Shown: positions 11,222-47,838 of the stretch, piece by piece
Layout of the letters: each line of letters starts with the position of its first letter
Position numbering within the stretch: position 1 is the stretch's first letter
From: a candidate division TM6 bacterium GW2011_GWF2_28_16
GTDB taxonomy: Bacteria > Patescibacteriota > Microgenomatia > UBA1400 > PJMF01
Assembly (NCBI GenBank): GCA_001029715.1
Contig: CP011212.1
Location: forward strand, 67,407-131,406
Direction of reading: 5' to 3'
DNA length: 64,000 nucleotides
Notes under the pieces: generated by a model
Database searches by the model: none
What the model saw: only the letters and a program-made list of their open reading frames with translations
Told to the model about the DNA's origin: nothing
Position numbers and translations under genes: made by a program

Positions 11222-11222
11222 A

Positions 11223-21011: not shown

Positions 21012-21099
21012 AGCTTGTCTATTTTATAACTAAAAAATCCAGATTGCCATGTAAATTCTTTGCATGATTTTTTTTGTTTTTTACGACTATTAGAGTGTA

Positions 21100-24444: not shown

Positions 24445-24446
24445 AT

Positions 24447-24740
24447 ATGAATATAACGGAGTATTGGCGCTCAAACAAACAATGGTCTAAATATCTTGGC
24501 AAAAAAGCCAAGGTTTTAGCTGTTTCATTGATGGAAGTGGCGGCTTCAGATCAAACTGCGCTTTTGCCTTATTCTTATTTGCTCCTAGATTTAGAGAAAA
24601 GTAAAATTTCTTTGATGGGTGCTGCTCATCAAGAATTTAAAATTGGTGATGAGGTAGAAATTGTTTTGCGCAAAATTAAAAAAGAGGCTCAGGAAGAGAT
24701 AATCGTTTATGGTCTCAAAGCGGAAAAAATTTATGTCTAG
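24447..24740 (+). CDS. DUF35 OB-fold protein (scaffold of the thiolase/HMG-CoA synthase complex)
   Basis: 97-aa OB-fold-like ORF immediately after the thiolase, as in archaeal mevalonate operons. No Zn-ribbon cysteines. Confidence 0.55.
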   Translation: MNITEYWRSNKQWSKYLGKKAKVLAVSLMEVAASDQTALLPYSYLLLDLEKSKISLMGAAHQEFKIGDEVEIVLRKIKKEAQEEIIVYGLKAEKIYV

Positions 24741-26585: not shown

Positions 26586-26694
26586 GTTTCGAGCCAGAGA
26601 TCGCTTGAATAAATACATTTTTTCACGCGCTCAAATGTCTCTAAACTTAGTTTTCCAAAACGTACTTTATTTAATTAAGCAAATTGAAAAAAAT

Positions 26695-28303: not shown

Positions 28304-29287
28304 TTATAGAAGTAGTAGCAAGAGTGCGCCAACGCCTAGGGCTCCAAGGCCAGCTTTAATGTAGTTCATCCAATCAGCTGGGCCACTTTCAGTAGGAACG
28401 TTGATTGGGCGCACGATGGTGGTTTCACCATTTGCTAATTTGCATTGACTATCTGTAGGATTGACGTCGAGGCGACATTGACCGCTGTAACAAATATGAC
28501 TAATGTTGCTACAGTCAGCATTGGCATTACAAGTTTCGTTGCAGCCAACAGTGGTAATAACGGTGGTAACAGATGGAGTTGGAGTGCTGGTAGCGGTCAC
28601 AGTAGTAGTTGGAGTTACGGTTGTAGTTACAGTAGTGGTTGGAGTAACAGTTGTAGTAACGGTTGGAGTAACAGTTACGGTTGCTTCACAACAAGTTGTG
28701 CTACTAGGATCGGCGACACATTCATCGAGATAATCTTCATCTGCACAGTATTTAACAATGTTTCCATCGCCATCAGTATCTGAAGTAGAAATACAAACAT
28801 AACCATCTTCGCAGTCATCGCTGTTGGTACAGTCTTTTTCACCACAAGAAAGCAAGTTTTCTTCTGGAGCGGTGCAACAAGAGTCAGTGTTTGGATCATC
28901 TATACAGGCTGTTTTATAATCTTCATCTGCACAATATTTATTGCCATTGTCGGCCTCAATACAAATTAAATTACTGCTACAGTCATCGTCACTTTCGCAA
29001 CCACTCAAACCACAGGTAATTTTATCTGGTTCTGTAACTGTAAATTCAAGAGTACAAGTTTGAGTTTTTTCAATATAAGCAGCTGGCTGAGATTGAGGGG
29101 CAGTTGGGGCGACTGGAGTAGTGTCTTGTTTTTGCGTAATTAAGAAAACACTAACTGCGCCACCAACAAAAATTAGTAGACCCAGCAACATAGCGATCAC
29201 TTTAAAATCGCCTTTTTTCTTCAGAGCAGTTTGTCCTTGCTTTGATTTTACGTAGGTCGCTGGTGTTTCAATTTGTTCTATGTTCAT
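28304..29287 (-). CDS. Cys-rich, Thr-repeat cell-surface protein with N-terminal signal anchor and C-terminal hydrophobic tail
   Basis: N-terminal TM helix. Two copies of a Cys-rich module (C..SGCESDDDCSSNLICIE...KYCADEDY..C..DP....CC). Thr/Val/Pro repeat TVTPTTTVTTTVTPTTTV. C-terminal GLGALGVGALLLLLL. Confidence 0.6.
   Translation of the reverse strand: MNIEQIETPATYVKSKQGQTALKKKGDFKVIAMLLGLLIFVGGAVSVFLITQKQDTTPVAPTAPQSQPAAYIEKTQTCTLEFTVTEPDKITCGLSGCESDDDCSSNLICIEADNGNKYCADEDYKTACIDDPNTDSCCTAPEENLLSCGEKDCTNSDDCEDGYVCISTSDTDGDGNIVKYCADEDYLDECVADPSSTTCCEATVTVTPTVTTTVTPTTTVTTTVTPTTTVTATSTPTPSVTTVITTVGCNETCNANADCSNISHICYSGQCRLDVNPTDSQCKLANGETTIVRPINVPTESGPADWMNYIKAGLGALGVGALLLLLL
28560..28685. 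repeat. imperfect tandem ~24-30-bp coding repeats (Thr/Val/Pro linker)
   Basis: Direct repeats GTTGGAGTAACAGTTGTAGTAACG / GTTGGAGTTACGGTTGTAGTTACAGTAGTG inside the minus-strand surface-protein gene. Confidence 0.6.
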
Positions 29288-29291
29288 TATT

Positions 29292-30683
29292 TTAATTCAC
29301 ATTATCTATCATTGTGCTTGGTGAATTATCCACCATTTCCCAAACTTGGCATTCCGTTCCCCAGCAAATACGACCCTGGACAACGTAATCTCCAAAGCTT
29401 GAAATGGTGTAGGAATCAGATACATTTTTAGCAATTGCGCCACTAGTGTCAGTTAGATCTATCCAAGAGCTCATGCCTGGAGCCCAGATTCTAAATTCAT
29501 AATTAAAGTCAACTCCTTGGTTGCCGACAGCAGTGCAACGGAAGCGCACCTCATCTCCGTCCTTGAGACTATCATCATCGTTTGCTTCCATAGTATTGTT
29601 ATTAGCATCTAGCATATCTATGCTGGCACAAACTGGCATAGCCTGGCTTTCACAACAATTGGCAGTGCTTGGATCAGCTGCGCAAAACAATTGATTTTCT
29701 CCTTTGGCACAAATACCAGTCGATTGAGAGTCGACTGTTACTGTTTGACAAGTAAGACCATTTTGACAGTCAGAATTTTGAGTACAACCAATCACTCCGC
29801 AGGCTAAAAGTTCTGGAGGTGTAGTAGGAGTTGGAGTAGGTGTTCTATTTGGAGGATTAGTTGGAGTAGGGGTTGGTGTGGCGCAATCTGAACAATCAGC
29901 TCCAGCATCACCGCATAAAGCATCACAACTTGAGGCACTGCCTATCACCCACCAGCCAGCGCTACATTGGCAACGCATTAAGCCAGATTCTTCACAGTTT
30001 TCGATTACTGAAGTATTTGGATTGTCGCACCAATCTCCGCCCATGGATTGTTCTGTGCACGGATCTTGATCGGTAACGTAACCGCACATGGTATCGCCAT
30101 TGGCGATTATTCTACAGGTAGTACTAACACATGGTCCACCAGCTACGAGTCTATGCAGATTTGGACCGCAGGCCGCCACAGTTGTGGTTGGAGTAACGGT
30201 CGAACCACCCGTGGGTGTACAGGCACCATCAATTACACGATAGCCAGTAATACATCTTCCACTAGTACCATTACAATATGGATCTCCTTCCATACACATC
30301 TCACTGGCTTGTTGGCGGTTGTCTTGATTTTGTCTGCTAAGTATATAACTAGAAAAAACCCCAACTACCAAGAAAAAAACTATAAGTAAGCCAGCCAATT
30401 TATTATTTGATTTCTTTTTCACTTGAAAAGATGGTTTTTGATCAGTTGAAAGTGGATTTTGAATAGAAACAGTTTCAGCACCTGACTTAACTGCCTCTTT
30501 GAGAGGTTCATTATCTGTAATTGTATTACCGCGATATTCTGGTATTTCTGGTTCTTTAGCAAGATCATTCCAAGGGGAATCAATTTTTTCTGGTTCTTTA
30601 ACAAAGTTATCGGAAGAATCCTCTGCCTTGTCTATCTGGCTTTTTTTATATTTAGCTGGTATAAAATCTCTAGGATTATTCAT
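29292..30683 (-). CDS. Cys-rich secreted/surface protein with PT-rich linker
   Basis: N-terminal signal anchor (LAGLLIVFFLVVGVFSSYIL), numerous Cys, PTPTPTNPPNRTPTPTPTTP linker. 463 aa. Confidence 0.6.
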   Translation of the reverse strand: MNNPRDFIPAKYKKSQIDKAEDSSDNFVKEPEKIDSPWNDLAKEPEIPEYRGNTITDNEPLKEAVKSGAETVSIQNPLSTDQKPSFQVKKKSNNKLAGLLIVFFLVVGVFSSYILSRQNQDNRQQASEMCMEGDPYCNGTSGRCITGYRVIDGACTPTGGSTVTPTTTVAACGPNLHRLVAGGPCVSTTCRIIANGDTMCGYVTDQDPCTEQSMGGDWCDNPNTSVIENCEESGLMRCQCSAGWWVIGSASSCDALCGDAGADCSDCATPTPTPTNPPNRTPTPTPTTPPELLACGVIGCTQNSDCQNGLTCQTVTVDSQSTGICAKGENQLFCAADPSTANCCESQAMPVCASIDMLDANNNTMEANDDDSLKDGDEVRFRCTAVGNQGVDFNYEFRIWAPGMSSWIDLTDTSGAIAKNVSDSYTISSFGDYVVQGRICWGTECQVWEMVDNSPSTMIDNVN

Positions 30684-30787: not shown

Positions 30788-31588
30788 ATGAAATTTTTAA
30801 AATTAAATACAAAACAAAGATATTGGCTAGATTTTATTCTTGTGATGACGCAAAAGGAGATAAAGGCAAGGTATAAGAGAACTTTTTTAGGTCTTTTGTG
30901 GGTAATTTTTAATCCATTCTTGCAGATGCTAATAATTGGTTTGATTTTTCAATTTTTTGTTCCTATGCAAATTGAGAATTATTTTCTTTATCTTTTTGCT
31001 GGTCTTTTACCTTGGAATTTCTTTTCAATGGCGCTTTTGCGCGCGACACCTCTTTTAGTGCAGGAAAGATCTTTGATTCAAAAAGCTGCTTTTCCTAGAG
31101 AATTAATGGTTGTGGCAGTGGTCATGGCAAATTTATTTCATACTTTAGTGGCTAGTTCAGTATTTTTGCTATTTTTAGCTTTTCTAAAGACGAGTTTTTT
31201 TGCTGGTGTCCTATTTTTTATATCTAGCTTTTTCTTAATCTTTTTAATACTTATCTTTTTATTATTTTTTACTTTGGCGACTTGTTTAGTTATTTCTGCA
31301 TTATATGTAAAGATAAGAGATTTAATTTTCATTATCCAACTTTCAATTCAATTGCTATTTTATGCTGTGCCAGTTATCTATAGTCTAGAGATGTTACCGG
31401 AATTTTTTAGAAATCTACTTTATCTAAATCCATTGGTTAGCTATATTGAGGTTTTTAGAGCGGCTGCTTTAAATAGTGTTTTCAATTATAAAATGGCAAT
31501 TTATGCCGGTCTTTTTTCCATTTTTTTTCTATTTTTTGCTCTGCAATTTTTTCGAAAAGAAAGCAAAAATTTTGATGATTGGTTTTAA
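30788..31588 (+). CDS. ABC-2 type transporter permease (Wzm/TagG-like)
   Basis: N-terminal KEIKARYKRTFLGLLWVIFNPFLQMLIIGLIF motif and six TM helices. Translationally coupled to the following ATPase. Confidence 0.85.
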   Translation: MKFLKLNTKQRYWLDFILVMTQKEIKARYKRTFLGLLWVIFNPFLQMLIIGLIFQFFVPMQIENYFLYLFAGLLPWNFFSMALLRATPLLVQERSLIQKAAFPRELMVVAVVMANLFHTLVASSVFLLFLAFLKTSFFAGVLFFISSFFLIFLILIFLLFFTLATCLVISALYVKIRDLIFIIQLSIQLLFYAVPVIYSLEMLPEFFRNLLYLNPLVSYIEVFRAAALNSVFNYKMAIYAGLFSIFFLFFALQFFRKESKNFDDWF

Positions 31589-32649
31589 ATTTTAAAATGA
31601 AAAACAGTAAAAATAAAAAAATAGCTATAAATATAGAAAACGCTAGTAAACGCTATTTCTTGCGATCTGCAAAAGCTAAGAAAAAAGAAACTTTTTTTGC
31701 CTTAAAAGATATAAATATAAAAATATTTAAGGGAGAAAAAGTAGCTATTCTTGGTGACAATGGGGCTGGCAAGACTACTTTGCTCAAAGTAATGACTGGA
31801 ATAGCAGAACCAACTTGTGGGAAAGTGAATAGTATTGGTAAGCTTGTTTCCTTAATTGATATCACGGCTGGTTTTCATCCTGAGTTTTCAGGTCGTGAAA
31901 ATATTTATTTCAATGGCATTCTTTTAGGAATGAATCTTTCTTCAATTAAAAAATTAGAGCAAGAAATAATTAATTTTTCAGGTATAGAAAAATTTATAGA
32001 TCAAGCTCTTTATACCTATTCTTCAGGTATGGTTTTGCGGCTTGGTTTTTCTATTGCTATTCACAGCGATCCAGATATTTTAATTTTGGATGAGGAGGTG
32101 GTGGTGGGAGATCAGGATTTTCAGAAAAAGGCCTATGATGAAATTGAGAAGATTTTTGCTGAAGGTAAAACCATTGTTGTTTGTAGTCATGTTTTACCTT
32201 TACTGAGTAGACTTTGTGAGCGCTTCATCTGGCTAGATAAAGGCAAAGTAAAAATGGATGGAGGTAAAGAGGTTGTTATTGAATATAAAAAGAATCGAAG
32301 TAAATTGGATATAGAAAAAATTGGCAAGATTAAAAATGAAAAAAAATTTTTTCAATTTCTGCAATCTTTGCCAATCGGAGAGAGGTTTATTGTAGAAGCA
32401 GTCAGTGGCAGTATGGAGCCACTTATCTTAAAGGGCGATGAGGTAAGAGTTGAAAGGTGTTCACTTAAAAATATAAGAGTTGGCAACATAATTGCTTATT
32501 GGAGCGATGAATTTAAAAATATCATTGTTCATAGAATTTATAAGAAAAGCTCTAAGGGGATTTTCTTGACTAGAGGAGATAGTAACTATATTGTAGATGA
32601 GATGCCAGTCACAGAAGATATTTTTTTAGGTAAAGTTATTAATTTTTAA
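31579..32649 (+). CDS. ABC transporter ATP-binding protein (Wzt/TagH-like) with C-terminal Sec11/SipW-type signal-peptidase-like domain
   Basis: Walker A GDNGAGKTTLLK, signature YSSGMVLRLGF, Walker B ILILDEEVVVGD. C-terminal ~100 aa carry EAVSGSMEPLILKGDEV, IVHRIYK and LTRGDSNYIVDE, the three boxes of Sec11/SPC18/SipW (S26B) peptidases. Confidence 0.8.
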   Translation: MVLNFKMKNSKNKKIAINIENASKRYFLRSAKAKKKETFFALKDINIKIFKGEKVAILGDNGAGKTTLLKVMTGIAEPTCGKVNSIGKLVSLIDITAGFHPEFSGRENIYFNGILLGMNLSSIKKLEQEIINFSGIEKFIDQALYTYSSGMVLRLGFSIAIHSDPDILILDEEVVVGDQDFQKKAYDEIEKIFAEGKTIVVCSHVLPLLSRLCERFIWLDKGKVKMDGGKEVVIEYKKNRSKLDIEKIGKIKNEKKFFQFLQSLPIGERFIVEAVSGSMEPLILKGDEVRVERCSLKNIRVGNIIAYWSDEFKNIIVHRIYKKSSKGIFLTRGDSNYIVDEMPVTEDIFLGKVINF

Positions 32650-32934
32650 ATGAGGATAAATATGAAAATATTATATATTCGAGACAATGATCTTTATTTT
32701 AAGGAGGAAGACGGCAAAATATTGGTTTTAAAAAAGAACAAAAAAGAAATTGTGGAATTAAATGAGGTTGGCTCTTTGATTTGGAAAGCTTTGAAGACGA
32801 AGAAGTCTATTGATGCTTTGGTGAAAAAAATAAATTCAGCTTTTGAGGGGGCAGATTCTAAGGAGGTAAAAAAAGATGTTGAGGAGTTTATTCTCAAGTG
32901 TTTAAAAGATTCAATAATAGAAAAAATAAATTAG
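32650..32934 (+). CDS. PqqD-like protein (RiPP recognition element family)
   Basis: 94 aa. Pattern LYF.EEDGKILVL....EIVELNEVGSLIWKAL.TKKSIDALVKKINSAF....KEVKKDVEEFILKCLKDSII follows the PqqD/PF05402 consensus. Confidence 0.65.
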   Translation: MRINMKILYIRDNDLYFKEEDGKILVLKKNKKEIVELNEVGSLIWKALKTKKSIDALVKKINSAFEGADSKEVKKDVEEFILKCLKDSIIEKIN

Positions 32935-32938
32935 AGTT

Positions 32939-33922
32939 ATGAAAAAAATTAGCAGACAAGAGTTTGATTATTTAATTAAAAAAAGAAAGCTTGAAGATCC
33001 AAAGAAAATTAAAGCTTTTGAAAAAATACTAAAAGATGAGCGCGGTTATGTTTTCAAAATGCCTAAAAGAGGTTCGAATGTTATTTTAATGGCTTCTGGT
33101 GGACTTGATTCAATGGTTGTTTGGGGAATTTTAATGAAAGAATATGGCTTGAATGTTTATCCGATTACTTTTGACAGAGGTGAAAAAAAAAGAAACAGGG
33201 AATTTGCTGCTTTTAAATATTTTGATAAATTTTATCAGAAAAAATTTCCTAAAAATTATAGAAAATTTTTAGATTTAGACGTAGGACAAGATCAGATTTC
33301 AATAAAAATTGAAGACGGTGTCAAAGATCTACGAGAAGAAACATTATTAAATAATTTTAGAGATGACTTAATGTTTTTTAACCCCTCTTTAGGTGTTTTT
33401 ACTATCTTGCCACTTTTTGCACGTAGTTATGCCATGTATCTAAATGCAATTAAAGGTCTAAAAATTAATACTATTTTTTGTGCCGTCACAGCCAATGATG
33501 GGGAATTAATTGCTCATCAAACCTTAACTTCATTGAGGTCTATTATGTGCAACATGTGTGTTTCAATCAAAGATTATTCTTGGCAGTTTTTGTCAATTTG
33601 TTTAGAGCCAGAAATTAATTCTTTTATAAAGAAATCAGATCTTGTTAAGTGGGGAGAAGATAATAGTTTACCACTAGAAAAATCTTGGAGTTGTTACCAT
33701 GCGAAAAAGTATCAATGTGGTGGAGATAACTGTATTGCTTGTGAAGCGAGAAGAAAAGCATATTTAGAGGCAAAAATAGAAGATAGAACTATTTATAAAA
33801 GCCTTGCAGATCAGGAGATCCTAATTAAAAAAGCGAAAAAAACTTTAAGAAAGTATCTTTCTAGAACAAAAAAGAACTTAATAAACACAGTTAAACGTTT
33901 TTTTGAAGATACGATAAGATAG
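32939..33922 (+). CDS. QueC-family PP-loop ATPase (7-cyano-7-deazaguanine synthase-like) with N-terminal extension
   Basis: PP-loop ILMASGGLDSMVV. ITFDRGEKKRNRE (cf. QueC VTFDYGQRHRAE). C-terminal Zn motif SCYHAKKYQCGGDNCIACEARRKAY (QueC SCY..x..CGxCxxCxxR). ~45 extra N-terminal residues. Confidence 0.7.
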   Translation: MKKISRQEFDYLIKKRKLEDPKKIKAFEKILKDERGYVFKMPKRGSNVILMASGGLDSMVVWGILMKEYGLNVYPITFDRGEKKRNREFAAFKYFDKFYQKKFPKNYRKFLDLDVGQDQISIKIEDGVKDLREETLLNNFRDDLMFFNPSLGVFTILPLFARSYAMYLNAIKGLKINTIFCAVTANDGELIAHQTLTSLRSIMCNMCVSIKDYSWQFLSICLEPEINSFIKKSDLVKWGEDNSLPLEKSWSCYHAKKYQCGGDNCIACEARRKAYLEAKIEDRTIYKSLADQEILIKKAKKTLRKYLSRTKKNLINTVKRFFEDTIR

Positions 33923-34067
33923 AACTATCAAGGGGAAATCTAAGAATGCTGTTTAGAACTAAATTTATTCAGCTACTACTAAGATAGCTTTTAGATCAAT
34001 AATTCTAAGTTGAGGTTTTTTATATTTTTGCATTGTAATTTAATGTTAGATAATTTTTAAGTTGTTG

Positions 34068-34784
34068 TCAACGATTAGATTGCTTTTGAATTATGCCCAG
34101 TCCAGAGCCTAAATAATTTACTTCAATCTTATTTTTGTTTGTTTTTTCTTCCCAAAGTTTCCAGACTCCGTATTTTCCTTCTGGCAAAGTTTCTTTTATA
34201 GAAATATCGTGCAGAAGCATAAGACCTCCTTCATGGAGCATCGGCCAGAAGAGTTTAAAATCTGTTTTTATTCCTTCATAGGAATGGTCTCCGTCTATAT
34301 AGATATATTCATAGCTCATGTTTTTATATTTTTTGGCAAATTTTTGCGTAGTTGTTACAAATAGTTGGATATTATTTTCTAAGCCAAAATTTTTGAAATG
34401 ATCTTTGCCTTCTTGAGTTTTCCAAAAACCTTTTCCGGTCCATGAGCTTTTACCTTCTTTTTTTATTTCATCGCCAAATCCCGCATCAACAAAGTCGACT
34501 TTGCCAAAACCATTGTCATGACAAGCTTGAGCTAGAACAGCTGGTATATATCCATATCGGGATCCAATGCAAAGAATTTTCTTTGCTTTTATTTGTCTGA
34601 GTAGGCCATAGTGAATCCAACCATATCCTAGGTCAGCATTTTTGATATTGGATTCGTGTCCAAATTCATCTGCTTCAAAAAAATTCATTAATTCGGTAAT
34701 TCTTAAATCATTGGAGAGCTTTTTACTTTTTTCTTGCTGATGGAATATTAAATATTTTAAGATTTTTGTTTTGATTCCAAACAT
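34068..34784 (-). CDS. class I SAM-dependent O-methyltransferase (TylF/MycF/CmcI-like)
   Basis: YIDGDHSYEGIKTDFKLFWPMLHEGGLMLLHDI motif typical of Methyltransf_24-type sugar/macrolide O-MTs. 238 aa. Confidence 0.6.
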   Translation of the reverse strand: MFGIKTKILKYLIFHQQEKSKKLSNDLRITELMNFFEADEFGHESNIKNADLGYGWIHYGLLRQIKAKKILCIGSRYGYIPAVLAQACHDNGFGKVDFVDAGFGDEIKKEGKSSWTGKGFWKTQEGKDHFKNFGLENNIQLFVTTTQKFAKKYKNMSYEYIYIDGDHSYEGIKTDFKLFWPMLHEGGLMLLHDISIKETLPEGKYGVWKLWEEKTNKNKIEVNYLGSGLGIIQKQSNR

Positions 34785-34789
34785 AGGTT

Positions 34790-35917
34790 TTAATTCTTTA
34801 AAATTTCGCTAATTTTTTTAATTTTATTATACCAACTATTTTCAATGGCTAATTGTCTAGCCTCTTTTCCATTTTTTTCAATCCAGCTATTTTTTTCAAT
34901 TGTTTCTATATGCTTTTTCCATTCTTGAGCATTTTTTCCTATTTTAATGAATTTTTTGAATTTATTATCAGTTAGTTCTTTTATTTCTGTAGAAATTATT
35001 GGTTTTTCAAAATAAAGATACTCAAAAGTTTTCATTGGATAGCAATTAGCATTAAATGGATAACTGACGTCATAGGGTATTATGCAGAGGTCAAATTGAG
35101 ATATTAATTGAGGAATTTTATCTTTTTTTTGAGATTCAATTTTTTTTACATTGGAGAAAGATAAAAATTTTTTAATTCGTTTTCTTTTATTTTCTTTTAT
35201 TTTTAAGTCTCTTTTAATTGGTCCAATAAAAGTGAAATTAGTTTCTGGCATTAACTTGACTAAATTTATCATTAGATCGTAGTCAATGCGGTCGCTTATG
35301 GCTCCAATAAAACCAACGTTTATTTTCTTCTTCTTTGAGAATTTTATGGGCGATTTTTCAAACATTTGCAAATCAAAGCCCTGAGACACTAAATGAAGCT
35401 TTTTTTTATTATATTTTGCCACTTCTTTTTTTAGGGTCTTTGAATTAACAAAAATATAGTTTGCTTTATCTAAATTTGTTTTATATTTTTTGAAATCAAA
35501 CCAATCAACTATATCTAAGATCAGCTCTCTTTTTTTCAAGTTATGCTTTTCTATTTCCACTGTAAGATCAAAGATCCACTCATATGTTTTTTTATTTATC
35601 GATAGAAAGAAAATAATAAACTCAGTAATAAAATAATTAATTTTGTTATTTAGTTTTGAAAATAAATCTTTTGTAAAGAGAAATTTAATTTTCTTTGGAA
35701 AAAAGTAAAAATATTTATAATAAAAAATGTCATTTTTTTTACTTAATAAAAAGAATTCTTGTTGAAAAAGCTTTTTCCAACTCAAGGAGAAATTTTTTTC
35801 AATAACTAAGACTTTATTATTATTTTGTGTTAAGATCCGAATAGTTTGTAATATGAAATCGCAAATTTCTTGAGGATTTTCATGAGTGGGAACAATAATA
35901 AAACTATTTCTAAGCAT
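34790..35917 (-). CDS. putative glycosyltransferase (GT-B, GT4-like C-terminal domain)
   Basis: C-terminal half (INVGFIGAISDRIDYDLMINLV...FIGP..) resembles the Glycos_transf_1 domain. N-terminal half is divergent. Confidence 0.4.
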   Translation of the reverse strand: MLRNSFIIVPTHENPQEICDFILQTIRILTQNNNKVLVIEKNFSLSWKKLFQQEFFLLSKKNDIFYYKYFYFFPKKIKFLFTKDLFSKLNNKINYFITEFIIFFLSINKKTYEWIFDLTVEIEKHNLKKRELILDIVDWFDFKKYKTNLDKANYIFVNSKTLKKEVAKYNKKKLHLVSQGFDLQMFEKSPIKFSKKKKINVGFIGAISDRIDYDLMINLVKLMPETNFTFIGPIKRDLKIKENKRKRIKKFLSFSNVKKIESQKKDKIPQLISQFDLCIIPYDVSYPFNANCYPMKTFEYLYFEKPIISTEIKELTDNKFKKFIKIGKNAQEWKKHIETIEKNSWIEKNGKEARQLAIENSWYNKIKKISEILKN

Positions 35918-37435
35918 CGACTATATATTAGCAAAGTTTTTGATTTATTTTTTATCAAAAAAAATGCTTTTTCTAAACAAGAAAAAATTTCTATACTTAT
36001 ATCTATTTTGTTTTTAGTTTCAGTTTTCTTCATTCCAAACAATAAATTTTTATTCATGGTTACTGCAACTTACATACTTTCTTTATTTATCGTGAACAAG
36101 TCAATTTATGAAACCGTCTTTTATGCTTTTTTACCACTGAGTTTAGTTTTAGTTGGTCAAGGTTATTCTTATATTGCTATTCCTGGTGAAGCAATAAAAT
36201 CAGAGGGCTATGAAGAGGGAAAAATTTTAAATTATTTTTTTTCTCCATTTATTGTTTTGTTGATTTTAATTAGTTTTTTATTTTTTGTTAATTTAACTCA
36301 AAAACTTTTTAGAAAAAAATCTTTTATTAAATTTAAGCCATTTATTATTTCTTTTTTATTCTTTTTTCTTTTTTCTTTTTTTTCTGCAATTAGCAATGAT
36401 TCTTTTCCAAAATTGTCCTTTCTTTACTTTTTAAATGATTTTCTATTTTTTATTTCTTGTTTTTTTATTGCGCTGTTTATTTCAGATAGCAAGGAAAAAA
36501 CAAATAAAATGAATTTGATTCTATTAAATTTGATAATTTTATCTGTTTTTTTAGGGATGGTTGTGATTTTTCAATTTATAAACAAATCACCCTTAGGAAT
36601 AATAGCTGAAATGAGCCACGAAGTCCCATTTTTTGGAGGTGGAGCAGATGAAGACAGTTCTTTATTTAGACCGATAGGAATTTTTACTCACGCTAATATT
36701 CTGGCTAACTATTTAAGCAATTTATTTTTTTCTATATTTTTATTGAAAGCTTATTTAATAGAAAAAAAAGAATTACTCATTAATAAAAAGTTTATCAATA
36801 TTGGATTGCTTCTCATTTTTATTTCTATATTCTCAACTCTCTCAAGAGCAGTTTATTTAGCTTTGTTTTTATCAGCATTGATTTATGTGTTTATTTTTAG
36901 AAAAGAAATATCCGCAAGCGGTAAGAAAATAGTTAAAAAAATATTGAAAGTTAAATATTTAATTTTTCTTTTACCTTTGATGTGGAATGTAGCTGTAAGA
37001 ATAATTTACAGTTTCAATAGCTTTTATCAAGAGGGAGGGGTTGGAGTTCGGGAAAAACTAACTATAGAGAGCTTAGCTCTTTTAAGAAGAAATTTTTTTT
37101 ATGGAGTGGGAACTGGCATGTTTATCCCATCTTTGTTTAGGGAAAATCCCATTGGAATCATAAGCGAATTTCCGGAGTCAGTTCATAATGGTATTTTATT
37201 AAATTTAATTGAAAATGGGTTTCTTTCTTTTTTCTTCTTTTTGATGGTTTATTTTTTATTTTTCAAAGCTTTAATAGCTTTAAAAGCTAATAAGAAAATC
37301 ATCGTAATTTCTTTTCTAGCAATTTTTTCCCAATTAGTAATAAGTTTCTTTCATCCATTCACAAACACCGTTACTCTATATACTTTTATTATGATTTTGA
37401 TAATATATGATCTATATGCAATTGAAAAAAAATAA
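35870..37435 (+). CDS. O-antigen polymerase/ligase family membrane protein (Wzy_C-like)
   Basis: ~12 TM helices and a periplasmic loop with HNGILLNLIENGFLSFFFF (Wzy_C H....E.G motif). The true start may be an internal Met. Confidence 0.55.
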   Translation: MRIFMSGNNNKTISKHRLYISKVFDLFFIKKNAFSKQEKISILISILFLVSVFFIPNNKFLFMVTATYILSLFIVNKSIYETVFYAFLPLSLVLVGQGYSYIAIPGEAIKSEGYEEGKILNYFFSPFIVLLILISFLFFVNLTQKLFRKKSFIKFKPFIISFLFFFLFSFFSAISNDSFPKLSFLYFLNDFLFFISCFFIALFISDSKEKTNKMNLILLNLIILSVFLGMVVIFQFINKSPLGIIAEMSHEVPFFGGGADEDSSLFRPIGIFTHANILANYLSNLFFSIFLLKAYLIEKKELLINKKFINIGLLLIFISIFSTLSRAVYLALFLSALIYVFIFRKEISASGKKIVKKILKVKYLIFLLPLMWNVAVRIIYSFNSFYQEGGVGVREKLTIESLALLRRNFFYGVGTGMFIPSLFRENPIGIISEFPESVHNGILLNLIENGFLSFFFFLMVYFLFFKALIALKANKKIIVISFLAIFSQLVISFFHPFTNTVTLYTFIMILIIYDLYAIEKK

Positions 37436-38294
37436 AATTTTAAAGTGGCTAAAGTCTTTTGACAAGATAGATATTATTGGCATTGTTTTCTTTTTTTTGA
37501 TTCTATTTAGTTCTGCATTATTTCTTTTAAGAAGGTCTGAATATGTGTACATTACCATAAGAGTTACCAAAGAAGACAGCCTTCATAATCAATGGTGGGT
37601 TCAGCCGTCTAATTGGTATTTGAAAAATTTAACTGATGGCCTGGAAGATAAAGACCTAATGGGGAAAGTTAATGCGAGATTAGAAAATATGTATTTTTAT
37701 CCAAGAAATGAATCGGTTCAAGATATATTTATAGTTTTAAAATTAGAGGCAACATACAATAAGAGATCAAATCAATATTCATATAAGGGCTTACCTCTTT
37801 TAATGGGCAGCTATCAAAAAATTGAACTAGGAGGAAATTCAATAAGAGGAATGGTTCAAGATCTTAGCTTAGACCCTCCGGTTAGAAAGATGAAATCTTT
37901 TAGGGTTAAAGTCGAGTTAGAGGCTGAAAATAATAGATCTGCTTTTACCAATGCAAATATCGAATATCGTGGAATTGATAATTTTTTGGCAGATCCGATC
38001 AAAGTAGGACTAGTTTCTTATGACAGCGAAAAAGAAGAAATTGTTAAAGTAATTGATGTAAAAAAATCTCCTTCTTATAAAATTTTTATTTCTCCTTTGA
38101 CCAATAAATTAGTCAGTGCCTATGATCCAGATAGACAAAAAGTAGAAATGGAGATGATAGTTAAGCAAGCTGAGGTTTTTGATGGCACTTATTTATACAG
38201 AGAAGATTTGGTAATTGCTTTGGGAGAGGTAATTCCTCTTTATTTTGATTCTCTAACCTTAAACGCAACTGTCACAGGTATAGAGGAGCTCTAG
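37407..38294 (+). CDS. hypothetical membrane-anchored protein
   Basis: N-terminal TM helix plus a ~250-aa soluble domain of unknown function. Confidence 0.35.
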   Translation: MIYMQLKKNKILKWLKSFDKIDIIGIVFFFLILFSSALFLLRRSEYVYITIRVTKEDSLHNQWWVQPSNWYLKNLTDGLEDKDLMGKVNARLENMYFYPRNESVQDIFIVLKLEATYNKRSNQYSYKGLPLLMGSYQKIELGGNSIRGMVQDLSLDPPVRKMKSFRVKVELEAENNRSAFTNANIEYRGIDNFLADPIKVGLVSYDSEKEEIVKVIDVKKSPSYKIFISPLTNKLVSAYDPDRQKVEMEMIVKQAEVFDGTYLYREDLVIALGEVIPLYFDSLTLNATVTGIEEL

Positions 38295-38301
38295 AGTTTT
38301 T

Positions 38302-39828
38302 TTATTGGCAATTCCATTTTTCTATTGTTTGTAGCTCGTGCTCCAAAAAACAATTTTCATTTAAAATTTTTCGAACTTCTTCTTTGTTTTTTAAATTATC
38401 TTGATATTCTTTTTCTAGATAAAGTTTTTTTGATTTCAATAGGCTCTCTAAACTACTGAGATTGTTGAGATAAATTCTATTGGTAACTTCGCTATTTTTA
38501 TTTTCATTAGACTTAATATATGTTGAATCATTTTCCATAGTATTAATGCTTAGAGTGTCTAGAAGAATACTTTCTGGAAAATATAAACTTAGCTCATTTC
38601 TTTCTTTGGTGAGATATTCAATTTTTTCTAATCTTTGTTTTGAATAAATACTTTTTAAGTTTGATAAGTTTTGAGGAATCCAAATAATAAACATCAGGAG
38701 AATTATCAAAAAAATATTGTTTTTTTTGATAAATATTTTTTTCACATAAAAAACAAAAAATATGATGTAAAGAATATGCGCTCTTGGAATCAAAACTGAT
38801 ACGTTTGGAAAAATTGTTCCAATTTTATAAATAGATGACAATATTGGAGATAGCAATGAGTAGCTCAAGGTAATTATAAATGGAGTGCTTACTAGCAACG
38901 CTATTTCTTTATTTTTTTTGAGGGTTTTGCTTTTTATGATTTTGGAAGTTATAAAAATTGTTATTAATATGAATATTAAAATTGTTAAAAATTTATTTTT
39001 AAAAATATTAATTCCAATGTTTTCTAAATAAAAACTGCTCAAATTTAAAAGAGTGGGCTTTTTTATCCAATCAATATTATTAAACTGCTGATAATTTTTA
39101 TAAGCACTGATAAGTAAAAATTCAAAAAAATAAATAAGTAGAAAACTTAGATATTGGATTATCTTTTTATTTTTATATAGTAGATAAGAAATTAATGTGA
39201 CCGCTAATACTATAAAACTATAGTCAACATAAATTCCCAGAACTGTTGATAAAATTAGCAAGAATAATGTTTTTTTATTTTTATTATTTAGATAGAGGTC
39301 AAATAAGATAATACTGGTACTACCAATAAAAATTAATAAGCTATACATTCTCAGTTGCCATGATTGTTGAATTATAAGAGGATGAAAACTTATTAAAGTC
39401 GCAAGCAAAACAGCAGAAAAAAAGTCTTTTCTAGTTTTTAATTTATAAAAAGATAAAAATATTATTGCTAGAACTTGAAAAACTAGAGAAGATAAAATTC
39501 TTAAAAATGTTAAATCTCTAGTAAAGAAAAGCAAAAATTTTAGATACAAATAATATCCCCCAGGATGTACATCCTGATTGAAATTAATAGCCATTTCTTT
39601 GAAATTGTATCTTTGAGTAAAAAACAAGGAATATTTTTCATCCAGCCACAGCGGTTGTGTTTTGATCGTGTATAATTTGATTATTATTCCAGACAGAATT
39701 ATAAGAAAAAGAATTATCTTTTCCTTTTTCTGAGGAATGCTATTTATATAAGTTTTAATAGATTTAAGTTTCATGGATAAAAAAGTTTCAGTAGTCATTG
39801 TAACAAAAAATAGACAGAATGATCTCAC
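38302..39828 (-). CDS. putative GT-C type membrane glycosyltransferase (ArnT/PMT-like)
   Basis: ~11 TM helices. First extracytoplasmic loop has QPLWLDEKYSLFF (DE motif). C-terminal coiled-coil soluble domain. Confidence 0.4.
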   Translation of the reverse strand: MRSFCLFFVTMTTETFLSMKLKSIKTYINSIPQKKEKIILFLIILSGIIIKLYTIKTQPLWLDEKYSLFFTQRYNFKEMAINFNQDVHPGGYYLYLKFLLFFTRDLTFLRILSSLVFQVLAIIFLSFYKLKTRKDFFSAVLLATLISFHPLIIQQSWQLRMYSLLIFIGSTSIILFDLYLNNKNKKTLFLLILSTVLGIYVDYSFIVLAVTLISYLLYKNKKIIQYLSFLLIYFFEFLLISAYKNYQQFNNIDWIKKPTLLNLSSFYLENIGINIFKNKFLTILIFILITIFITSKIIKSKTLKKNKEIALLVSTPFIITLSYSLLSPILSSIYKIGTIFPNVSVLIPRAHILYIIFFVFYVKKIFIKKNNIFLIILLMFIIWIPQNLSNLKSIYSKQRLEKIEYLTKERNELSLYFPESILLDTLSINTMENDSTYIKSNENKNSEVTNRIYLNNLSSLESLLKSKKLYLEKEYQDNLKNKEEVRKILNENCFLEHELQTIEKWNCQ

Positions 39829-40678: not shown

Positions 40679-40680
40679 TT

Positions 40681-41841: not shown

Positions 41842-41843
41842 TT

Positions 41844-47835: not shown

Positions 47836-47838
47836 CTT

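What the first reader, a model, noticed from the sequence alone, without database searches (positions are those of the whole stretch)
30788..33988. Four-gene cassette resembling a lasso-peptide-type maturation/export system built from non-canonical parts
Four co-directional, translationally coupled genes (gaps/overlaps of -10, 0 and 4 bp) encode an ABC-2 permease, a Wzt/TagH-type ATPase with an appended cytoplasmic Ser-peptidase domain, a 94-aa PqqD-like RRE protein and a QueC-family PP-loop ATPase. The parts map one-to-one onto lasso-peptide logic: D = ABC exporter, B2 = leader peptidase, B1 = RRE, C = ATP-dependent carboxylate-activating PP-loop enzyme. Each is a different protein family from the canonical one: a Sec11/SipW-type Ser/His peptidase instead of a transglutaminase-like Cys protease, and a QueC-like enzyme instead of an AsnB-like one. 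QueC chemistry (adenylation of a carboxylate, then amide/nitrile formation) could in principle amidate or macrolactamise a peptide. I could not find a convincing precursor ORF in the flanks (only a 13-aa ORF MLFRTKFIQLLLR at 33946-33987). An alternative reading is a novel modification/export step for a glycan or 7-deazapurine conjugate feeding the adjacent glycan locus. I am not aware of this gene combination being described.
Basis: partly seen in the sequence, partly recalled or inferred. Interest (0 to 1): 0.85.

Follow-up and report, generated by a model that had tools for sequence, protein, structure and literature searches.

The report
Peptide-modifying cassette fused to glycan exporter

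Summary

The missing precursor exists. It is a 22-aa ORF on the minus strand, 33965-34033 (MQKYKKPQLRIIDLKAILVVAE), with a YxxP leader motif. I found 47 distinct relatives in related loci.

Among 31 non-redundant related loci with good flanks, 22 have both PqqD and the peptidase (20 with a recognisable peptide), 9 have none of the three, and none is mixed. PqqD and QueC-like proteins cluster by peptide type, and natural QueC-like::PqqD fusions exist.

A methyltransferase, usually a PLP decarboxylase, and glycan-assembly genes are also conserved. QueC-like loci without PqqD exist too.

The module RRE + soluble SipW-like leader peptidase + YxxP leader was published in 2026 (LPP family). The QueC-like enzyme, the fusion to a TagGH/Wzm-Wzt exporter and the ultra-short precursors are not described.

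Most likely this is an RRE-guided, ATP-dependent modification of the peptide's C-terminal carboxylate, followed by leader cleavage at the exporter. The chemistry, and whether the product is free or glycan-linked, are unresolved. I rate it a new variant of a known kind.

The parts
30788..31588 (+). ABC-2 type permease (Wzm/TagG-like)
   Evidence: PF01061 scores 57.8 bits (cut-off 26.9). The best NCBIfam hit is galactan exporter Wzm/RfbD at 66 bits, below the equivalog cut-off. It is the only ABC-2 permease in the 64-kb window. It is conserved next to the QueC-like gene in most related loci.
31579..32649 (+). ABC ATPase (Wzt/TagH-type NBD) fused through a flexible linker to a soluble Sec11/SipW-type signal-peptidase core. 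The probable true start is the ATG at 31597.
   Evidence: ABC_tran scores 72.4 bits, Wzt/RfbE 172 bits and TagH 168 bits. P0030, the identical protein, is called from 31597. The AF2 model has pLDDT 84.4 with a low-confidence linker at residues 235-239. About 28 fusion clusters exist in public data, all from CPR or metagenomes.
32341..32646 (+). Peptidase domain of the fusion: an N-terminal helix followed by the S26B catalytic core. Catalytic Ser codon 32410-32412 (SGSMEP), His 32530-32532 (VHR), Asp 32578-32580 (RGDS).
   Evidence: TIGR02228 scores 69.3 bits (cut-off 51.85). The domain aligns to human SEC11A 7p2p through all three motifs. Ser, His and Asp are invariant in 16 distinct family domains and in 28 fusion proteins. 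No TM-grade hydrophobic segment is present. The motifs were translated directly.
32650..32934 (+). PqqD-family RiPP recognition element (RRE)
   Evidence: PF05402 scores 45.2 bits (cut-off 23.4). The nearest NCBIfam models are lasso-type PqqD chaperones, all below cut-off. It co-occurs strictly with the peptidase and the peptide and clusters by peptide type. It is naturally fused to the QueC-like enzyme in P0029/L024.
32939..33922 (+). QueC-fold PP-loop ATPase with a Zn(Cys4) site, without 7-deazaguanine-binding motifs. Proposed peptide carboxylate-activating enzyme.
   Evidence: PF06508 scores 53.6 bits, but TIGR00364 scores 35.3 against 150.3. SGGxDS and four Cys are invariant. YxQxHxxE, VPxRN and YPDC are absent (against PMC13329287). 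The AF2 model has pLDDT 88.8, and the top PDB folds are QueC 2pg3/3bl5 and Cap9 9nto.
33965..34033 (-). Precursor (substrate) peptide gene, 22 aa: MQKYKKPQLRIIDLKAILVVAE, with a YxxP leader motif. Coordinates include the stop codon.
   Evidence: Translated. The family profile finds 21 copies in 19 loci at E = 4e-10 to 2.5e-4, against a best background of E >= 0.34 in 1.39 Mb of six-frame sequence. The independent metagenome set adds more than 20 further copies, always 75-180 bp from the QueC-like gene. Substitutions against the 87%-identical relative are synonymous or conservative.
34068..34784 (-). Class I SAM methyltransferase (Methyltransf_24). A conserved companion, on the same strand as the peptide gene and 34 nt upstream of it.
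   Evidence: PF13578 scores 66.3 bits. It is present in 24 of 31 well-flanked non-redundant family loci, with or without PqqD. No NCBIfam equivalog was found.
34043..34071 (-). Promoter-like site directly upstream of the peptide ORF (weak evidence)
   Evidence: It is the best sigma-70-like match in 30.5-34.9 kb (10 of 12; TTGACA-17-TAACAT). The number of such matches in the region is not above the shuffled expectation.
28304..30683 (-). Two Cys-rich, Thr/Pro-rich membrane-anchored surface proteins, transcribed divergently. Conserved neighbours; possibly acceptors or partners of the exported product.
   Evidence: Homologues lie next to the ABC-2 gene in WIN, L001, L005, L008, L014, L015, L020, L022 and L025, including loci without PqqD. 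No Pfam or NCBIfam match was found.
34790..50139 (.). Adjacent glycan-assembly locus (context): GT4, two Wzy_C genes, GT2, an epimerase, WecG/TagA, GFO/IDH/MocA, DegT
   Evidence: Pfam hits. Glycan genes flank the module in related loci as well.

Best explanation
This is an RRE-dependent peptide-maturation module physically coupled to a glycan-type ABC exporter.

The steps I propose:
1. The 22-aa peptide (33965-34033, minus strand) binds the PqqD-type RRE through its N-terminal KK-YxxP-x(L/D)KK(I/V)K(I/L)K strand.
2. The RRE presents the peptide to the QueC-fold PP-loop enzyme. That enzyme uses ATP to adenylate a carboxylate on the short variable C-terminal end, most probably the C-terminal alpha-carboxylate.
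3. The enzyme converts the adenylate to an amide. The partner could be ammonia (possibly going on to a nitrile, as QueC does) or an amine. In most relatives an adjacent PLP decarboxylase could supply such an amine, and the Methyltransf_24 enzyme adds a further modification.
4. The soluble Sec11/SipW-type Ser/His/Asp peptidase then removes the leader in an RRE-dependent way, as LppS does in the LPP family. Because this peptidase is fused to the cytoplasmic ATPase of a TagGH/Wzm-Wzt-type ABC-2 exporter, cleavage would occur at the transporter, so processing is coupled to export.

Shown here: the genes, their domains and intact catalytic motifs; the existence and conservation of the peptide; strict co-occurrence and co-variation of peptide, RRE, peptidase and QueC-like enzyme; loss of the deazaguanine pocket.

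Inferred: every chemical step, the cleavage site, the identity of the exported species, and whether the product stays free or is attached to the glycopolymer made next door.
For: Domains and cut-offs.

Peptidase:
- It aligns to SEC11A through SGSMEP/VHR/GDxN.
- Ser/His/Asp are invariant in 16 family domains and 28 fusions.
- It has no membrane anchor.
- An N-terminal helix precedes the core, as in LppS (PMC13381572).

Peptide:
- The profile finds it only beside PqqD/QueC-like genes.
- It is confirmed in an independent metagenome set and in loci reached from the peptidase alone.
- Its substitution pattern is coding-like.

Co-occurrence: 22 loci have PqqD and peptidase (20 with a peptide), 9 have none, 0 are mixed, among 31 non-redundant well-flanked loci.

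Pairing:
- QueC-like and PqqD proteins cluster by the adjacent peptide type.
- L001 has two peptide+PqqD+QueC-like triplets of different type sharing one transporter/peptidase.
- QueC-like::PqqD fusions exist.

QueC-like enzyme: it keeps the PP-loop and Zn site but lacks YxQxHxxE/VPxRN/YPDC; the fold is confirmed.

C-terminal chemistry:
- The distance from the motif Tyr to the C-terminus is 17-23 residues in 42 of 44 peptides.
- No acidic side chain is universally conserved.
- PP-loop enzymes amidate or nitrilate RiPP C-termini (PMC13060819).
- QueC-family enzymes can use peptide substrates (PMC13279940 and 10.1101/2025.04.06.647259).
Against: No experiment, and no multimer modelling was possible.
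- Nine well-flanked QueC-like loci have the ABC-2 pair, methyltransferase and decarboxylase but no PqqD, peptidase or detectable peptide. The enzyme family can therefore work without a peptide, and the exporter's cargo may be something other than the peptide.
- The exporter is of the lipid-linked-glycan type rather than a known peptide exporter, and the module is always embedded in glycan operons.
- The window itself lacks the decarboxylase.
- The inferred cleavage site (offset 16 or 18 from the Tyr) would leave only about 1-7 residues, which is unusually small for a RiPP core, and the site rests on pattern alone.
- Two PqqD-positive loci (L117, L121) yielded no peptide.
- The loci are phylogenetically related, so the contingency count overstates independence.
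Confidence: 0.6

Rival explanations
1. Peptide-tagged glycan export. The QueC-like enzyme ligates the RRE-bound peptide, through its C-terminal carboxylate, to an amino group on the lipid-linked glycopolymer (an amino sugar or an amine substituent). The peptidase occupies the position of the Wzt C-terminal carbohydrate-binding module. It recognises this peptide cap and clips off the leader as the polymer is exported, leaving a 1-7-residue stub on the surface glycan.
For: - The NBD and permease are Wzt/TagH and Wzm type, and they are the only ABC pair in the window.
- The peptidase sits exactly where Wzt proteins carry their cap-binding domain (from my knowledge of Wzt).
- The module is translationally embedded among glycan genes. 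In L016 the order is Wzy_C, peptidase, QueC-like, peptide, PqqD, WecG/TagA.
- Orthologous ABC-2/NBD, methyltransferase and decarboxylase genes occur in PqqD-less loci, which suggests a common non-peptide cargo.
- A DegT aminotransferase and a GFO/IDH/MocA oxidoreductase in the window could make amino sugars.
- The LPP clusters are also embedded in capsule loci (PMC13381572).
Against: - No ribosomal peptide is known to be ligated to a glycan by a PP-loop enzyme.
- In 6 of 22 loci the peptidase is not fused to the NBD, and in L024 it is fused to an NTP_transf_5 domain with no ABC-2 pair nearby. The peptidase therefore follows the peptide, not the exporter.
- Adjacency to glycan genes may only reflect clustering of envelope genes in small CPR genomes.
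Confidence: 0.2
2. Lasso-like or head-to-tail macrolactam. The peptidase frees a new N-terminal amine, and the QueC-like enzyme adenylates a side-chain or C-terminal carboxylate and closes a ring.
For: - RRE + YxxP leader + leader peptidase + ATP-dependent carboxylate-activating PP-loop enzyme matches lasso logic one-to-one.
- The nearest NCBIfam hits for the RRE are lasso PqqD chaperones, below cut-off.
- The tight Tyr-to-C-terminus spacing would also suit intramolecular chemistry.
Against: - No Asp/Glu is conserved at a fixed position; only 22 of 44 peptides have D/E in the last five residues.
- The variable segment is far shorter than the 7-9-residue ring plus tail that lasso peptides need.
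- There is no AsnB-like cyclase and no transglutaminase-type B2 protease in or near the cassette.
- A small head-to-tail cyclic peptide cannot be excluded, but nothing specifically supports it.
Confidence: 0.07
3. A purely glycan- or small-molecule-modifying system. The QueC-like enzyme amidates a uronic acid or similar carboxylate with a decarboxylase-derived amine, in the manner of WbpG/PseA-type PP-loop amidotransferases or Campylobacter capsule amidation. PqqD, the peptidase domain and the small ORF would have no peptide-substrate role.
For: - The conserved core of QueC-like + methyltransferase + decarboxylase + Wzm/Wzt exists without PqqD/peptidase in 9 loci.
- WbpG-type sugar amidotransferases belong to the wider PF06508 superfamily (PMC13329287).
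- One locus carries a spermine-synthase-family gene and others carry Orn/DAP-type decarboxylases, pointing to amine metabolism.
Against: This does not explain several observations:
- the strict three-way co-occurrence of peptide, RRE and peptidase;
- the co-variation of QueC-like and PqqD proteins with peptide type;
- the QueC-like::PqqD fusions;
- the invariant catalytic triad.

It may well describe the PqqD-less relatives, but it does not fit the window's version.
Confidence: 0.08
4. A Cap9/QatC-like system. The QueC homologue conjugates a 7-deazaguanine (or another carboxylated base) to the N-terminus of the small peptide, possibly as part of an anti-phage defence.
For: The best sequence match in the PDB is Cap9 (E = 4.8e-10 over the Zn-ribbon region). 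Cap9 and QatC show that QueC-family enzymes can modify protein termini.
Against: - The substrate-pocket motifs for 7-carboxy-7-deazaguanine are absent.
- The QatC model scores 19 bits against a cut-off of 280.
- PADLOC gives only a generic QueC-fold hit.
- The peptides begin MK/MQ, whereas Cap9 and QatB substrates begin MG.
- No queD/queE/folE/tgt, CD-NTase, QatA/B/D or Cap10 was found in the annotated window.
Confidence: 0.03

Closest known systems
LPP (linear polyphosphorylated peptide) RiPP family of Bacillota: LppA precursor, LppB RRE, LppS SipW-like signal peptidase I (Popov et al., Nat Commun 2026, PMC13381572)
   Same: Both have a discrete PqqD-type RRE and a soluble archaeal/ER-type signal-peptidase core with a Ser/His/Asp triad, preceded by an N-terminal helix and lacking a membrane anchor. 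[quoted passage not shown] Both are embedded in polysaccharide loci. One relative here (L024) even carries NTP_transf_5 and kinase-like genes.
   Different: The window has no HprK-like kinase and no NTP transferase. Its modifying enzyme is a QueC-fold PP-loop ATPase plus a Methyltransf_24. Its transporter is ABC-2 (TagGH/Wzm-Wzt type) rather than MsbA-like, and the peptidase is fused to the transporter's ATPase. Its precursors are 20-31 aa rather than 35-200 aa. The host is a CPR bacterium rather than a member of the Bacillota.
Lasso peptide biosynthesis (A precursor, B1 RRE, B2 protease, C cyclase, D exporter)
   Same: Both have an RRE with a YxxP leader, a separate leader peptidase, an ATP-dependent PP-loop enzyme that activates a carboxylate, and an ABC exporter.
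   Different: The peptidase is a serine S26B type rather than a transglutaminase-like Cys protease. The PP-loop enzyme has a QueC fold and is not AsnB-like. The peptide has no ring-forming Asp/Glu at a fixed position, and the core is too short for a lasso.
C-terminal amidation or nitrilation of RiPPs by AsnB-like PP-loop enzymes (TsrC, ScdTA, PesC of nitrilobacillins; PMC13060819)
   Same: The proposed chemistry is the same: ATP-dependent activation of the peptide's C-terminal carboxylate, then amide (or nitrile) formation.
   Different: A different branch of the PP-loop superfamily is involved (QueC fold with a Zn ribbon, versus asparagine synthetase B). No glutaminase domain is present. Here the activity is inferred, not shown.
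Protein-modifying QueC homologues Cap9 (type IV CBASS) and QatC (QatABCD) (10.1101/2025.04.06.647259; PMC13279940; PMC13329287)
   Same: All have a QueC fold repurposed to act on a polypeptide held by a dedicated protein-protein interaction. The PP-loop and Zn site are retained.
   Different: Cap9 activates free 7-carboxy-7-deazaguanine and attacks it with a protein's N-terminal Gly. Here the deazaguanine pocket is lost, the peptides lack N-terminal Gly, the partner is an RRE, and the context is envelope biosynthesis rather than defence.
Peptidase-containing ABC transporters (PCATs) of bacteriocins and lanthipeptides (from my own knowledge)
   Same: A leader peptidase is fused to an ABC exporter, so that leader removal and export are coupled.
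   Different: PCATs have an N-terminal C39 Cys peptidase on a type-I exporter half-transporter and cleave after a double-Gly motif. Here a C-terminal S26B Ser peptidase sits on a stand-alone NBD of an ABC-2 (type V) exporter, and recognition is through an RRE.
Wzm/Wzt O-antigen and TagGH teichoic-acid exporters (from my own knowledge; NCBIfam hits)
   Same: The permease and NBD families match, the genomic context is glycan assembly, and a C-terminal accessory domain on the NBD sits where Wzt has its substrate-recognition module.
   Different: The accessory domain is an active-looking peptidase, not a carbohydrate-binding beta-sandwich. Scores are below the equivalog cut-offs.

Membership tests
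Canonical QueC (7-cyano-7-deazaguanine synthase) | PP-loop SGGxDS and a four-Cys zinc site | tested here: met
   SGG(L)DS, C252, C260, C265 and C268 are invariant in 29 family members, and these columns align with canonical QueCs.
Canonical QueC (7-cyano-7-deazaguanine synthase) | Substrate-pocket motifs YxQxHxxE, VPxRN and YPDC, shown to be essential in PMC13329287 | tested here: not met
   All three motifs are absent from the family but present in the canonical QueCs aligned with it (motifs).
Canonical QueC (7-cyano-7-deazaguanine synthase) | Score at or above the curated cut-off of the equivalog model TIGR00364 | tested here: not met
   35.3 bits against a cut-off of 150.3.
Canonical QueC (7-cyano-7-deazaguanine synthase) | Association with queD/queE/folE/tgt | tested here: inconclusive
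   None was found among the annotated ORFs of the 64-kb window or in the related loci. The rest of the genome could not be searched.
Cap9/QatC protein-modifying QueC homologues | Substrate protein with an exposed N-terminal Gly (MG...), and partner genes (CD-NTase/Cap10 or QatA/B/D) | tested here: not met
   The second residue of the peptides is K in 35 of 44 and never G. QatC NF041925 scores 19 bits against 280. PADLOC finds no system hit.
RiPP recognition element (PqqD family) | Pfam PF05402 at or above the gathering score | tested here: met
   45.2 bits against 23.4.
RiPP recognition element (PqqD family) | A cognate peptide with a recognition motif encoded nearby | tested here: met
   A YxxP-containing peptide lies within 6-230 bp of PqqD or 18-180 bp of the QueC-like gene in nearly all PqqD-bearing loci. 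Physical binding was not testable.
PQQ biosynthesis (PqqA-E) | PqqD equivalog score, and PqqE radical SAM and PqqB/C genes | tested here: not met
   TIGR03859 scores 29.1 bits against 46. The window contains no radical SAM gene.
Lasso peptide system | AsnB-like macrolactam synthetase and a transglutaminase-like B2 protease | tested here: not met
   Neither domain is present in the cassette or its flanks. The lasso PqqD models score below their cut-offs: 29.9 bits against 80 and 25.8 against 70.
Lasso peptide system | Core peptide with Asp/Glu at position 7-9 and a C-terminal tail | tested here: not met
   No acidic residue is conserved at a fixed position, and the variable region is about 1-7 residues.
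LPP family (PMC13381572) | SipW-like signal peptidase I with Ser/His/Asp and no membrane anchor, next to a discrete RRE | tested here: met
LPP family (PMC13381572) | Leader with a YxxP motif | tested here: met
   Y and P are invariant in 44 of 44 peptides, although the relaxed searches required this motif; the profile hits did not. The rest of the LPP consensus (VLxHQxIxFET) is not shared.
LPP family (PMC13381572) | [quoted passage not shown] | tested here: not met
   All are absent from the window cassette. The transporter is ABC-2 type. The peptides are 20-46 aa with a median of 23. Only the relative L024 has NTP_transf_5 and a kinase-like gene.
Type I signal peptidase, archaeal/ER type (S26B; Sec11/SipW) | Catalytic Ser (SxSMxP), His (HR) and Asp (GD) motifs, and TIGR02228 at or above its cut-off | tested here: met
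   69.3 bits against 51.85; motif alignment.
Type I signal peptidase, archaeal/ER type (S26B; Sec11/SipW) | N-terminal membrane anchor placing the active site outside the cytoplasm | tested here: not met
   The match covers model positions 30-119 of 158 only. Maximum KD(19) hydropathy is <= 1.6, against 3.17 for the permease. The domain is fused to a cytoplasmic NBD.
Wzm/Wzt or TagGH glycan exporters | ABC-2 permease plus a Wzt/TagH-type NBD | tested here: inconclusive
   These are the best-scoring families (172 and 168 bits for the NBD, 66 bits for the permease), but all are far below the equivalog cut-offs of 400, 320 and 380. The next-closest NBDs in the database are TagH proteins.
Wzm/Wzt or TagGH glycan exporters | Wzt C-terminal carbohydrate-binding domain | tested here: not met
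   The C-terminal domain is an S26B peptidase core.
PCAT (peptidase-containing ABC transporters) | N-terminal C39 Cys peptidase domain and a double-Gly leader | tested here: not met
   There is no C39 hit, and the peptides have no GG/GA motif.

The most novel reading that the evidence does not exclude
A ribosomally made peptide serves as a cleavable 'signal sequence' for a cell-surface glycopolymer. The RRE/QueC-like pair ligates the peptide's C-terminus to the finished lipid-linked glycan. The signal-peptidase domain, which replaces the Wzt cap-binding module, recognises this tag and cuts it off during ABC-2 export, leaving a short peptide stub on the polymer. This would be a new principle: a RiPP-type leader gating polysaccharide export, in the minimal envelopes of CPR bacteria.
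Probability: 0.15. Interest if true: 0.95.

Novelty: new variant of a known kind. Interest (0 to 1): 0.72.

Why it matters
If the model holds, it would matter in four ways.
1. It would add a third function to the QueC fold: after nucleobase biosynthesis and N-terminal protein deazaguanylation, RRE-guided modification of a ribosomal peptide. That would define a new RiPP class by its class-defining enzyme.
2. It would be the first peptidase-containing ABC transporter built on an ABC-2 (type V, glycan-type) exporter with a serine signal-peptidase domain. This extends the 2026 discovery of SipW-like leader peptidases beyond the Bacillota.
3. It would give candidate-phyla-radiation bacteria a conserved, testable peptide-maturation system wired into their cell-envelope glycan loci. 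These organisms have tiny genomes, few known secondary-metabolite pathways and poorly understood envelopes.
4. The very short, ruler-like precursors (Tyr-to-C-terminus distance of 17-23 residues) would make a compact system for studying how an RRE positions a peptide terminus in an enzyme active site, and possibly for enzymatic C-terminal derivatisation of peptides.

Tried and rejected
- The first locus search with the full 29-sequence alignment failed because it had no sufficiently conserved stretch. A tighter alignment worked.
- A word-indexed homology search with the 100-aa peptidase domain returned nothing. This is a limit of that tool; exhaustive HMMER then found 1770 relatives.
- I looked for a precursor on the plus strand and in the upstream intergenic region and found nothing convincing.
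- I searched the PqqD-less loci for any alternative conserved small ORF and found only chance 4-6-residue matches.
- I searched the whole window for a PLP decarboxylase, Orn/DAP decarboxylase, radical SAM enzyme, sulfotransferase, or a second ABC pair, and found none.
- NCBIfam gave no equivalog for the methyltransferase, the decarboxylases or the Cys-rich proteins.
- PADLOC gave no defence-system assignment.
- The cleavage-site inference by (-3, -1) pattern is ambiguous: offset 18 fits 20 of 38 peptides, offset 16 fits 18 of 44, and offset 13 fits 18 of 44. I do not commit to a site.
- I did not run a fold search on the NBD-peptidase model, because the NBD would dominate the hits and the sequence evidence for the peptidase was already above the curated cut-offs.
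- Multimer modelling of RRE plus peptide was not available.
- Literature searches for QueC-like + PqqD, QueC/RiPP/PP-loop and Patescibacteria/RiPP/PqqD found no description of this system. Neither did the RRE-Finder paper or the 2025 RRE survey.

Full report
**Observation**

Profile searches confirm each domain call.
- ABC2_membrane scores 57.8 bits (cut-off 26.9).
- ABC_tran scores 72.4 bits, with the best named relatives Wzt/RfbE (172 bits) and TagH (168 bits).
- TIGR02228, archaeal-type signal peptidase I, scores 69.3 bits (cut-off 51.85) on residues 268-354 of the ATPase.
- PqqD scores 45.2 bits (cut-off 23.4).
- QueC PF06508 scores 53.6 bits (cut-off 22).

The 0- and 4-bp gaps are correct. 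The 10-bp overlap depends on a TTG start. The identical database protein P0030 is called from the ATG at 31597. The window matches Candidatus Pacebacteria GW2011_GWF2_38_9, a CPR bacterium (P0001, 100% identity).

**The peptidase domain**

The domain aligns with human SEC11A (7p2p) through SGSMEP, VHR and GDxN..D. In 16 distinct family domains and in 28 fusion proteins the Ser, His and Asp are invariant. The motifs sit at window codons 32410-32412 (Ser), 32530-32532 (His) and 32578-32580 (Asp).

The match covers only the catalytic core, positions 30-119 of the 158-position model. No peptidase-bearing protein in the family has a transmembrane-grade hydrophobic stretch: maximum KD(19) is <= 1.6, against 3.17 for the permease. 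The AF2 model (pLDDT 84.4) shows a flexible linker, then a helix, then the beta-rich core.

**The QueC-like enzyme**

The family is small: 29 clusters at 90% identity. It keeps the SGGxDS PP-loop and four invariant Cys. It scores 35.3 bits against the QueC equivalog cut-off of 150.3.

It lacks all three motifs (YxQxHxxE, VPxRN, YPDC) that a 2026 survey of PF06508 showed by mutagenesis to be essential for converting 7-carboxy-7-deazaguanine (PMC13329287; alignment). Its predicted structure (pLDDT 88.8) is closest to QueC 2pg3/3bl5 and Cap9 9nto, at 14-18% identity.

No queD/queE/folE/tgt gene lies among the annotated ORFs of the window. It has a QueC fold, but it is not a queuosine enzyme.

**The missing precursor**

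Many related loci have a 100-300 bp gap next to the QueC-like gene, so I listed small ORFs there. A conserved peptide emerged. The window copy is on the minus strand, 33965-34033: MQKYKKPQLRIIDLKAILVVAE. It lies 34 nt downstream of the methyltransferase stop and converges on the QueC-like gene.

Evidence that it is a real gene:
- A profile built from the first copies finds 21 copies in 19 loci at E = 4e-10 to 2.5e-4. The best background hit in 1.39 Mb of six-frame sequence is E = 0.34. That background includes about 59 ordinary-QueC control loci and the PqqD-less family loci.
- An independent metagenome scan added more than 20 further copies, always 75-180 bp from the QueC-like gene.
- Three loci reached only through the peptidase domain also carry it.
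- Against the 87%-identical relative L087, the ORF differs by synonymous changes (Tyr, Lys, Gln, Leu codons) and conservative replacements.
It is an antisense shadow.

**Co-occurrence and co-variation**

I reduced 71 family loci to 61 groups at 95% identity and kept the 31 groups with at least 3 kb on both sides of the QueC-like gene.

| Pattern | Groups |
|---|---|
| PqqD and peptidase both present | 22 (20 with a recognisable peptide) |
| None of PqqD, peptidase, peptide | 9 |
| Only one of PqqD or peptidase | 0 |

The peptidase is fused to the NBD in 16 of the 22. In the rest it is a separate gene, often overlapping the NBD stop. In L024 it is fused to an NTP_transf_5 domain.

Two peptide subtypes exist. 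QueC-like and PqqD proteins cluster by the subtype beside them. L001 has one triplet of each subtype but only one transporter/peptidase, one decarboxylase and one methyltransferase. P0029/L024 is a natural QueC-like::PqqD fusion, with PqqD scoring 27.1 bits against a cut-off of 23.4.

Together these results argue that the RRE and the QueC-like enzyme act on the peptide, and that the peptidase belongs to the peptide system.

**Peptide anatomy**

The set analysed has 44 distinct peptides of 20-46 aa, with a median of 23. Loci L139-L141 add three more.
- The consensus is (M)KK-Y-x-K/A-P-x-L/D-K-K-I/V-K-I/L-K-A/V-x-L-A, followed by 1-6 variable residues.
- The distance from the Tyr to the C-terminus is 17-23 residues in 42 of 44.
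- The C-terminal residue varies: E in 13, T in 6, K in 5, Y in 4, and others.
- Only half of the peptides have an acidic residue in the last five positions.

The only universal carboxylate is therefore the C-terminal alpha-carboxylate. The ruler-like spacing suggests that this terminus must reach an active site at a fixed distance from the RRE.

A signal-peptidase-type (-3, -1) pattern fits best 18 residues from the Tyr (20 of 38; ...VVA|E in the window). It also fits at 16 residues, the spacing reported for LPP leaders (18 of 44). I do not regard the site as settled.

**Wider conserved context**

- A Methyltransf_24 gene (window 34068-34784, minus strand) is present in 24 of the 31 well-flanked loci.
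- A PLP-dependent decarboxylase is present in 20 of 31. It is either Pyridoxal_deC type, nearest to His/Tyr decarboxylases, or Orn/DAP type. The window has none.
- Glycan genes always flank the module. In the window these are GT4, two Wzy_C genes, GT2, an epimerase, WecG/TagA, GFO/IDH/MocA and DegT. In L016 the module is translationally embedded between a Wzy_C gene and a WecG/TagA gene.
- Two Cys-rich, Thr/Pro-rich surface-protein genes (28304-30683) recur next to the permease, even in PqqD-less loci.
- The cassette's ABC pair is the only one in the window.

**Comparison with what is known**

- Popov et al. (Nat Commun, May 2026, PMC13381572) described the LPP family. It has a discrete RRE, a SipW-like signal peptidase I (LppS, catalytic S29/H68/D93, so no anchor) that cleaves the leader only when the RRE presents it, and a YxxP leader. 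Its clusters are embedded in capsule loci. [quoted passage not shown] The recognition/cleavage module is therefore no longer novel.
- The same paper states that such peptidases had not been described in RiPP pathways before.
- The QueC-family survey (PMC13329287), the RRE surveys and my literature searches contain no QueC-type enzyme partnered with an RRE, and no fusion of this peptidase to an ABC-2 ATPase.
- Precedents for the proposed chemistry exist in another PP-loop branch. AsnB-like TsrC and ScdTA amidate RiPP C-termini, and PesC nitrilates them (PMC13060819).
- Cap9 and QatC show that QueC folds can take polypeptide substrates. They use an N-terminal Gly and 7-carboxy-7-deazaguanine. 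The peptides here (MK/MQ starts) and the enzyme here (lost pocket) do not match either feature.

**Mechanism, and how sure I am**

My estimates for the individual steps:

| Claim | Estimated probability |
|---|---|
| The small ORF is a real, RRE-bound substrate | about 0.9 |
| The peptidase domain cleaves it | about 0.75 |
| The QueC-like enzyme modifies it | about 0.7 |
| The modification is at the C-terminal carboxylate | about 0.45 |

The nature of the nucleophile (ammonia, a decarboxylase-derived amine, or an amino sugar on the glycopolymer) is open.

The main constraint against a simple 'free RiPP' reading is that the orthologous exporter, methyltransferase, decarboxylase and QueC-like genes also occur without any peptide system, and that the exporter is of the lipid-linked-glycan type. 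I therefore keep a glycan-linked variant as a serious rival (0.2). In that variant the peptide acts as a cleavable tag or stub on the exported polymer, with the peptidase standing in for the Wzt cap-binding domain.

**Verdict**

It is also partly overtaken by 2026 literature. What remains undescribed:
- a QueC-fold enzyme as an RRE-guided peptide-modifying enzyme;
- a signal-peptidase-containing ABC-2 exporter;
- ultra-short, ruler-like precursors;
- all of this conserved in CPR envelope loci.

I rate it a new variant of a known kind, interest 0.72.

Noticed in passing
window 28304-29287 (-) and 29292-30683 (-): Two Cys-rich proteins with an N-terminal membrane anchor and long Thr/Pro-rich runs (TTTVTPTTTV...), without any Pfam or NCBIfam match. 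Homologues sit next to the ABC-2 permease in at least nine related loci, including PqqD-less ones. With two Wzy_C (O-antigen-ligase/PglL-like) genes nearby, they could be surface glycoprotein acceptors.
   Followed up: partly
window 19300-27693, and 6432-7109: A complete mevalonate pathway (thiolase, HMG-CoA synthase and reductase, three GHMP-family kinase/decarboxylase genes) and a polyprenyl synthase lie directly upstream of the cassette, with an undecaprenyl-diphosphate synthase further up. Together these would supply lipid carrier next to the glycan locus. The same synteny is seen in L001 and L087.
   Followed up: no
window about 33941-33964: The roughly 24 nt just downstream of the peptide stop codon (minus strand ...AAATTTAGTTCTAAACAGCATTCT...) are 100% identical between the window and the 87%-identical relative L087. 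That is more conserved than the peptide ORF itself. The block lies between two convergent genes and could be a shared terminator or regulatory element.
   Followed up: no
L113:308-418 (-) approx.: One relative has a longer precursor with the same leader but a Cys-rich C-terminal part: MKKYKKPELEKSLLQITVLLYECPAGCTKQGGHCAC. This suggests that some members of the family make a larger, possibly disulfide- or thioether-containing product.
   Followed up: no
L024:694-6836 (Roizmanbacteria UBA6242): A hybrid cluster with a peptidase core fused to NTP_transf_5 (PF14907, 73 bits), a PEPCK_ATP/HprK-like 266-aa protein, a discrete PqqD, a FAD_binding_4 oxidase, a YxxP peptide and a QueC-like::PqqD fusion. 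It bridges the window's system and the published LPP gene set.
   Followed up: partly
L123:3191-6679: This locus has three PqqD-family genes, one peptidase and a 46-aa YxxP peptide (MANLRKNNSKYKAPTAKKKKIIISSTNRGKDYYPILLVAEPDPVPW).
   Followed up: no
L140:5735-6613; L002:6926-7855; L003:5906-6989 and 11023-12018: Variable accessory enzymes sit next to the QueC-like gene in relatives: a spermine-synthase-family protein (L140), a sulfotransferase (L002) and radical SAM/SPASM proteins (L003, L026, L028, L139). The amine-related ones fit a role for amine donors.
   Followed up: no
window 34001-50000: The glycan locus downstream of the cassette has a markedly lower G+C content (0.26-0.30) than the region upstream (0.38-0.43 at 22-30 kb). 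This is typical of variable surface-polysaccharide islands.
   Followed up: no
window 31579 versus 31597: The start codon of the ATPase-peptidase gene is ambiguous. The longest ORF starts at a TTG that overlaps the permease gene by 10 bp. Public gene calls use the ATG 18 nt downstream.
   Followed up: yes
one search hit list (P0150-P0297): Exhaustive HMMER finds 1770 relatives of the soluble peptidase domain. Many are 100-170-aa proteins whose catalytic core starts within about 15 residues of the N-terminus, so they have no anchor. Some 375-440-aa proteins carry the domain at residues 270-370, with an unidentified N-terminal part. The class of cytoplasmic signal-peptidase-like enzymes may be much larger than the LPP and QueC-like systems.
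   Followed up: partly
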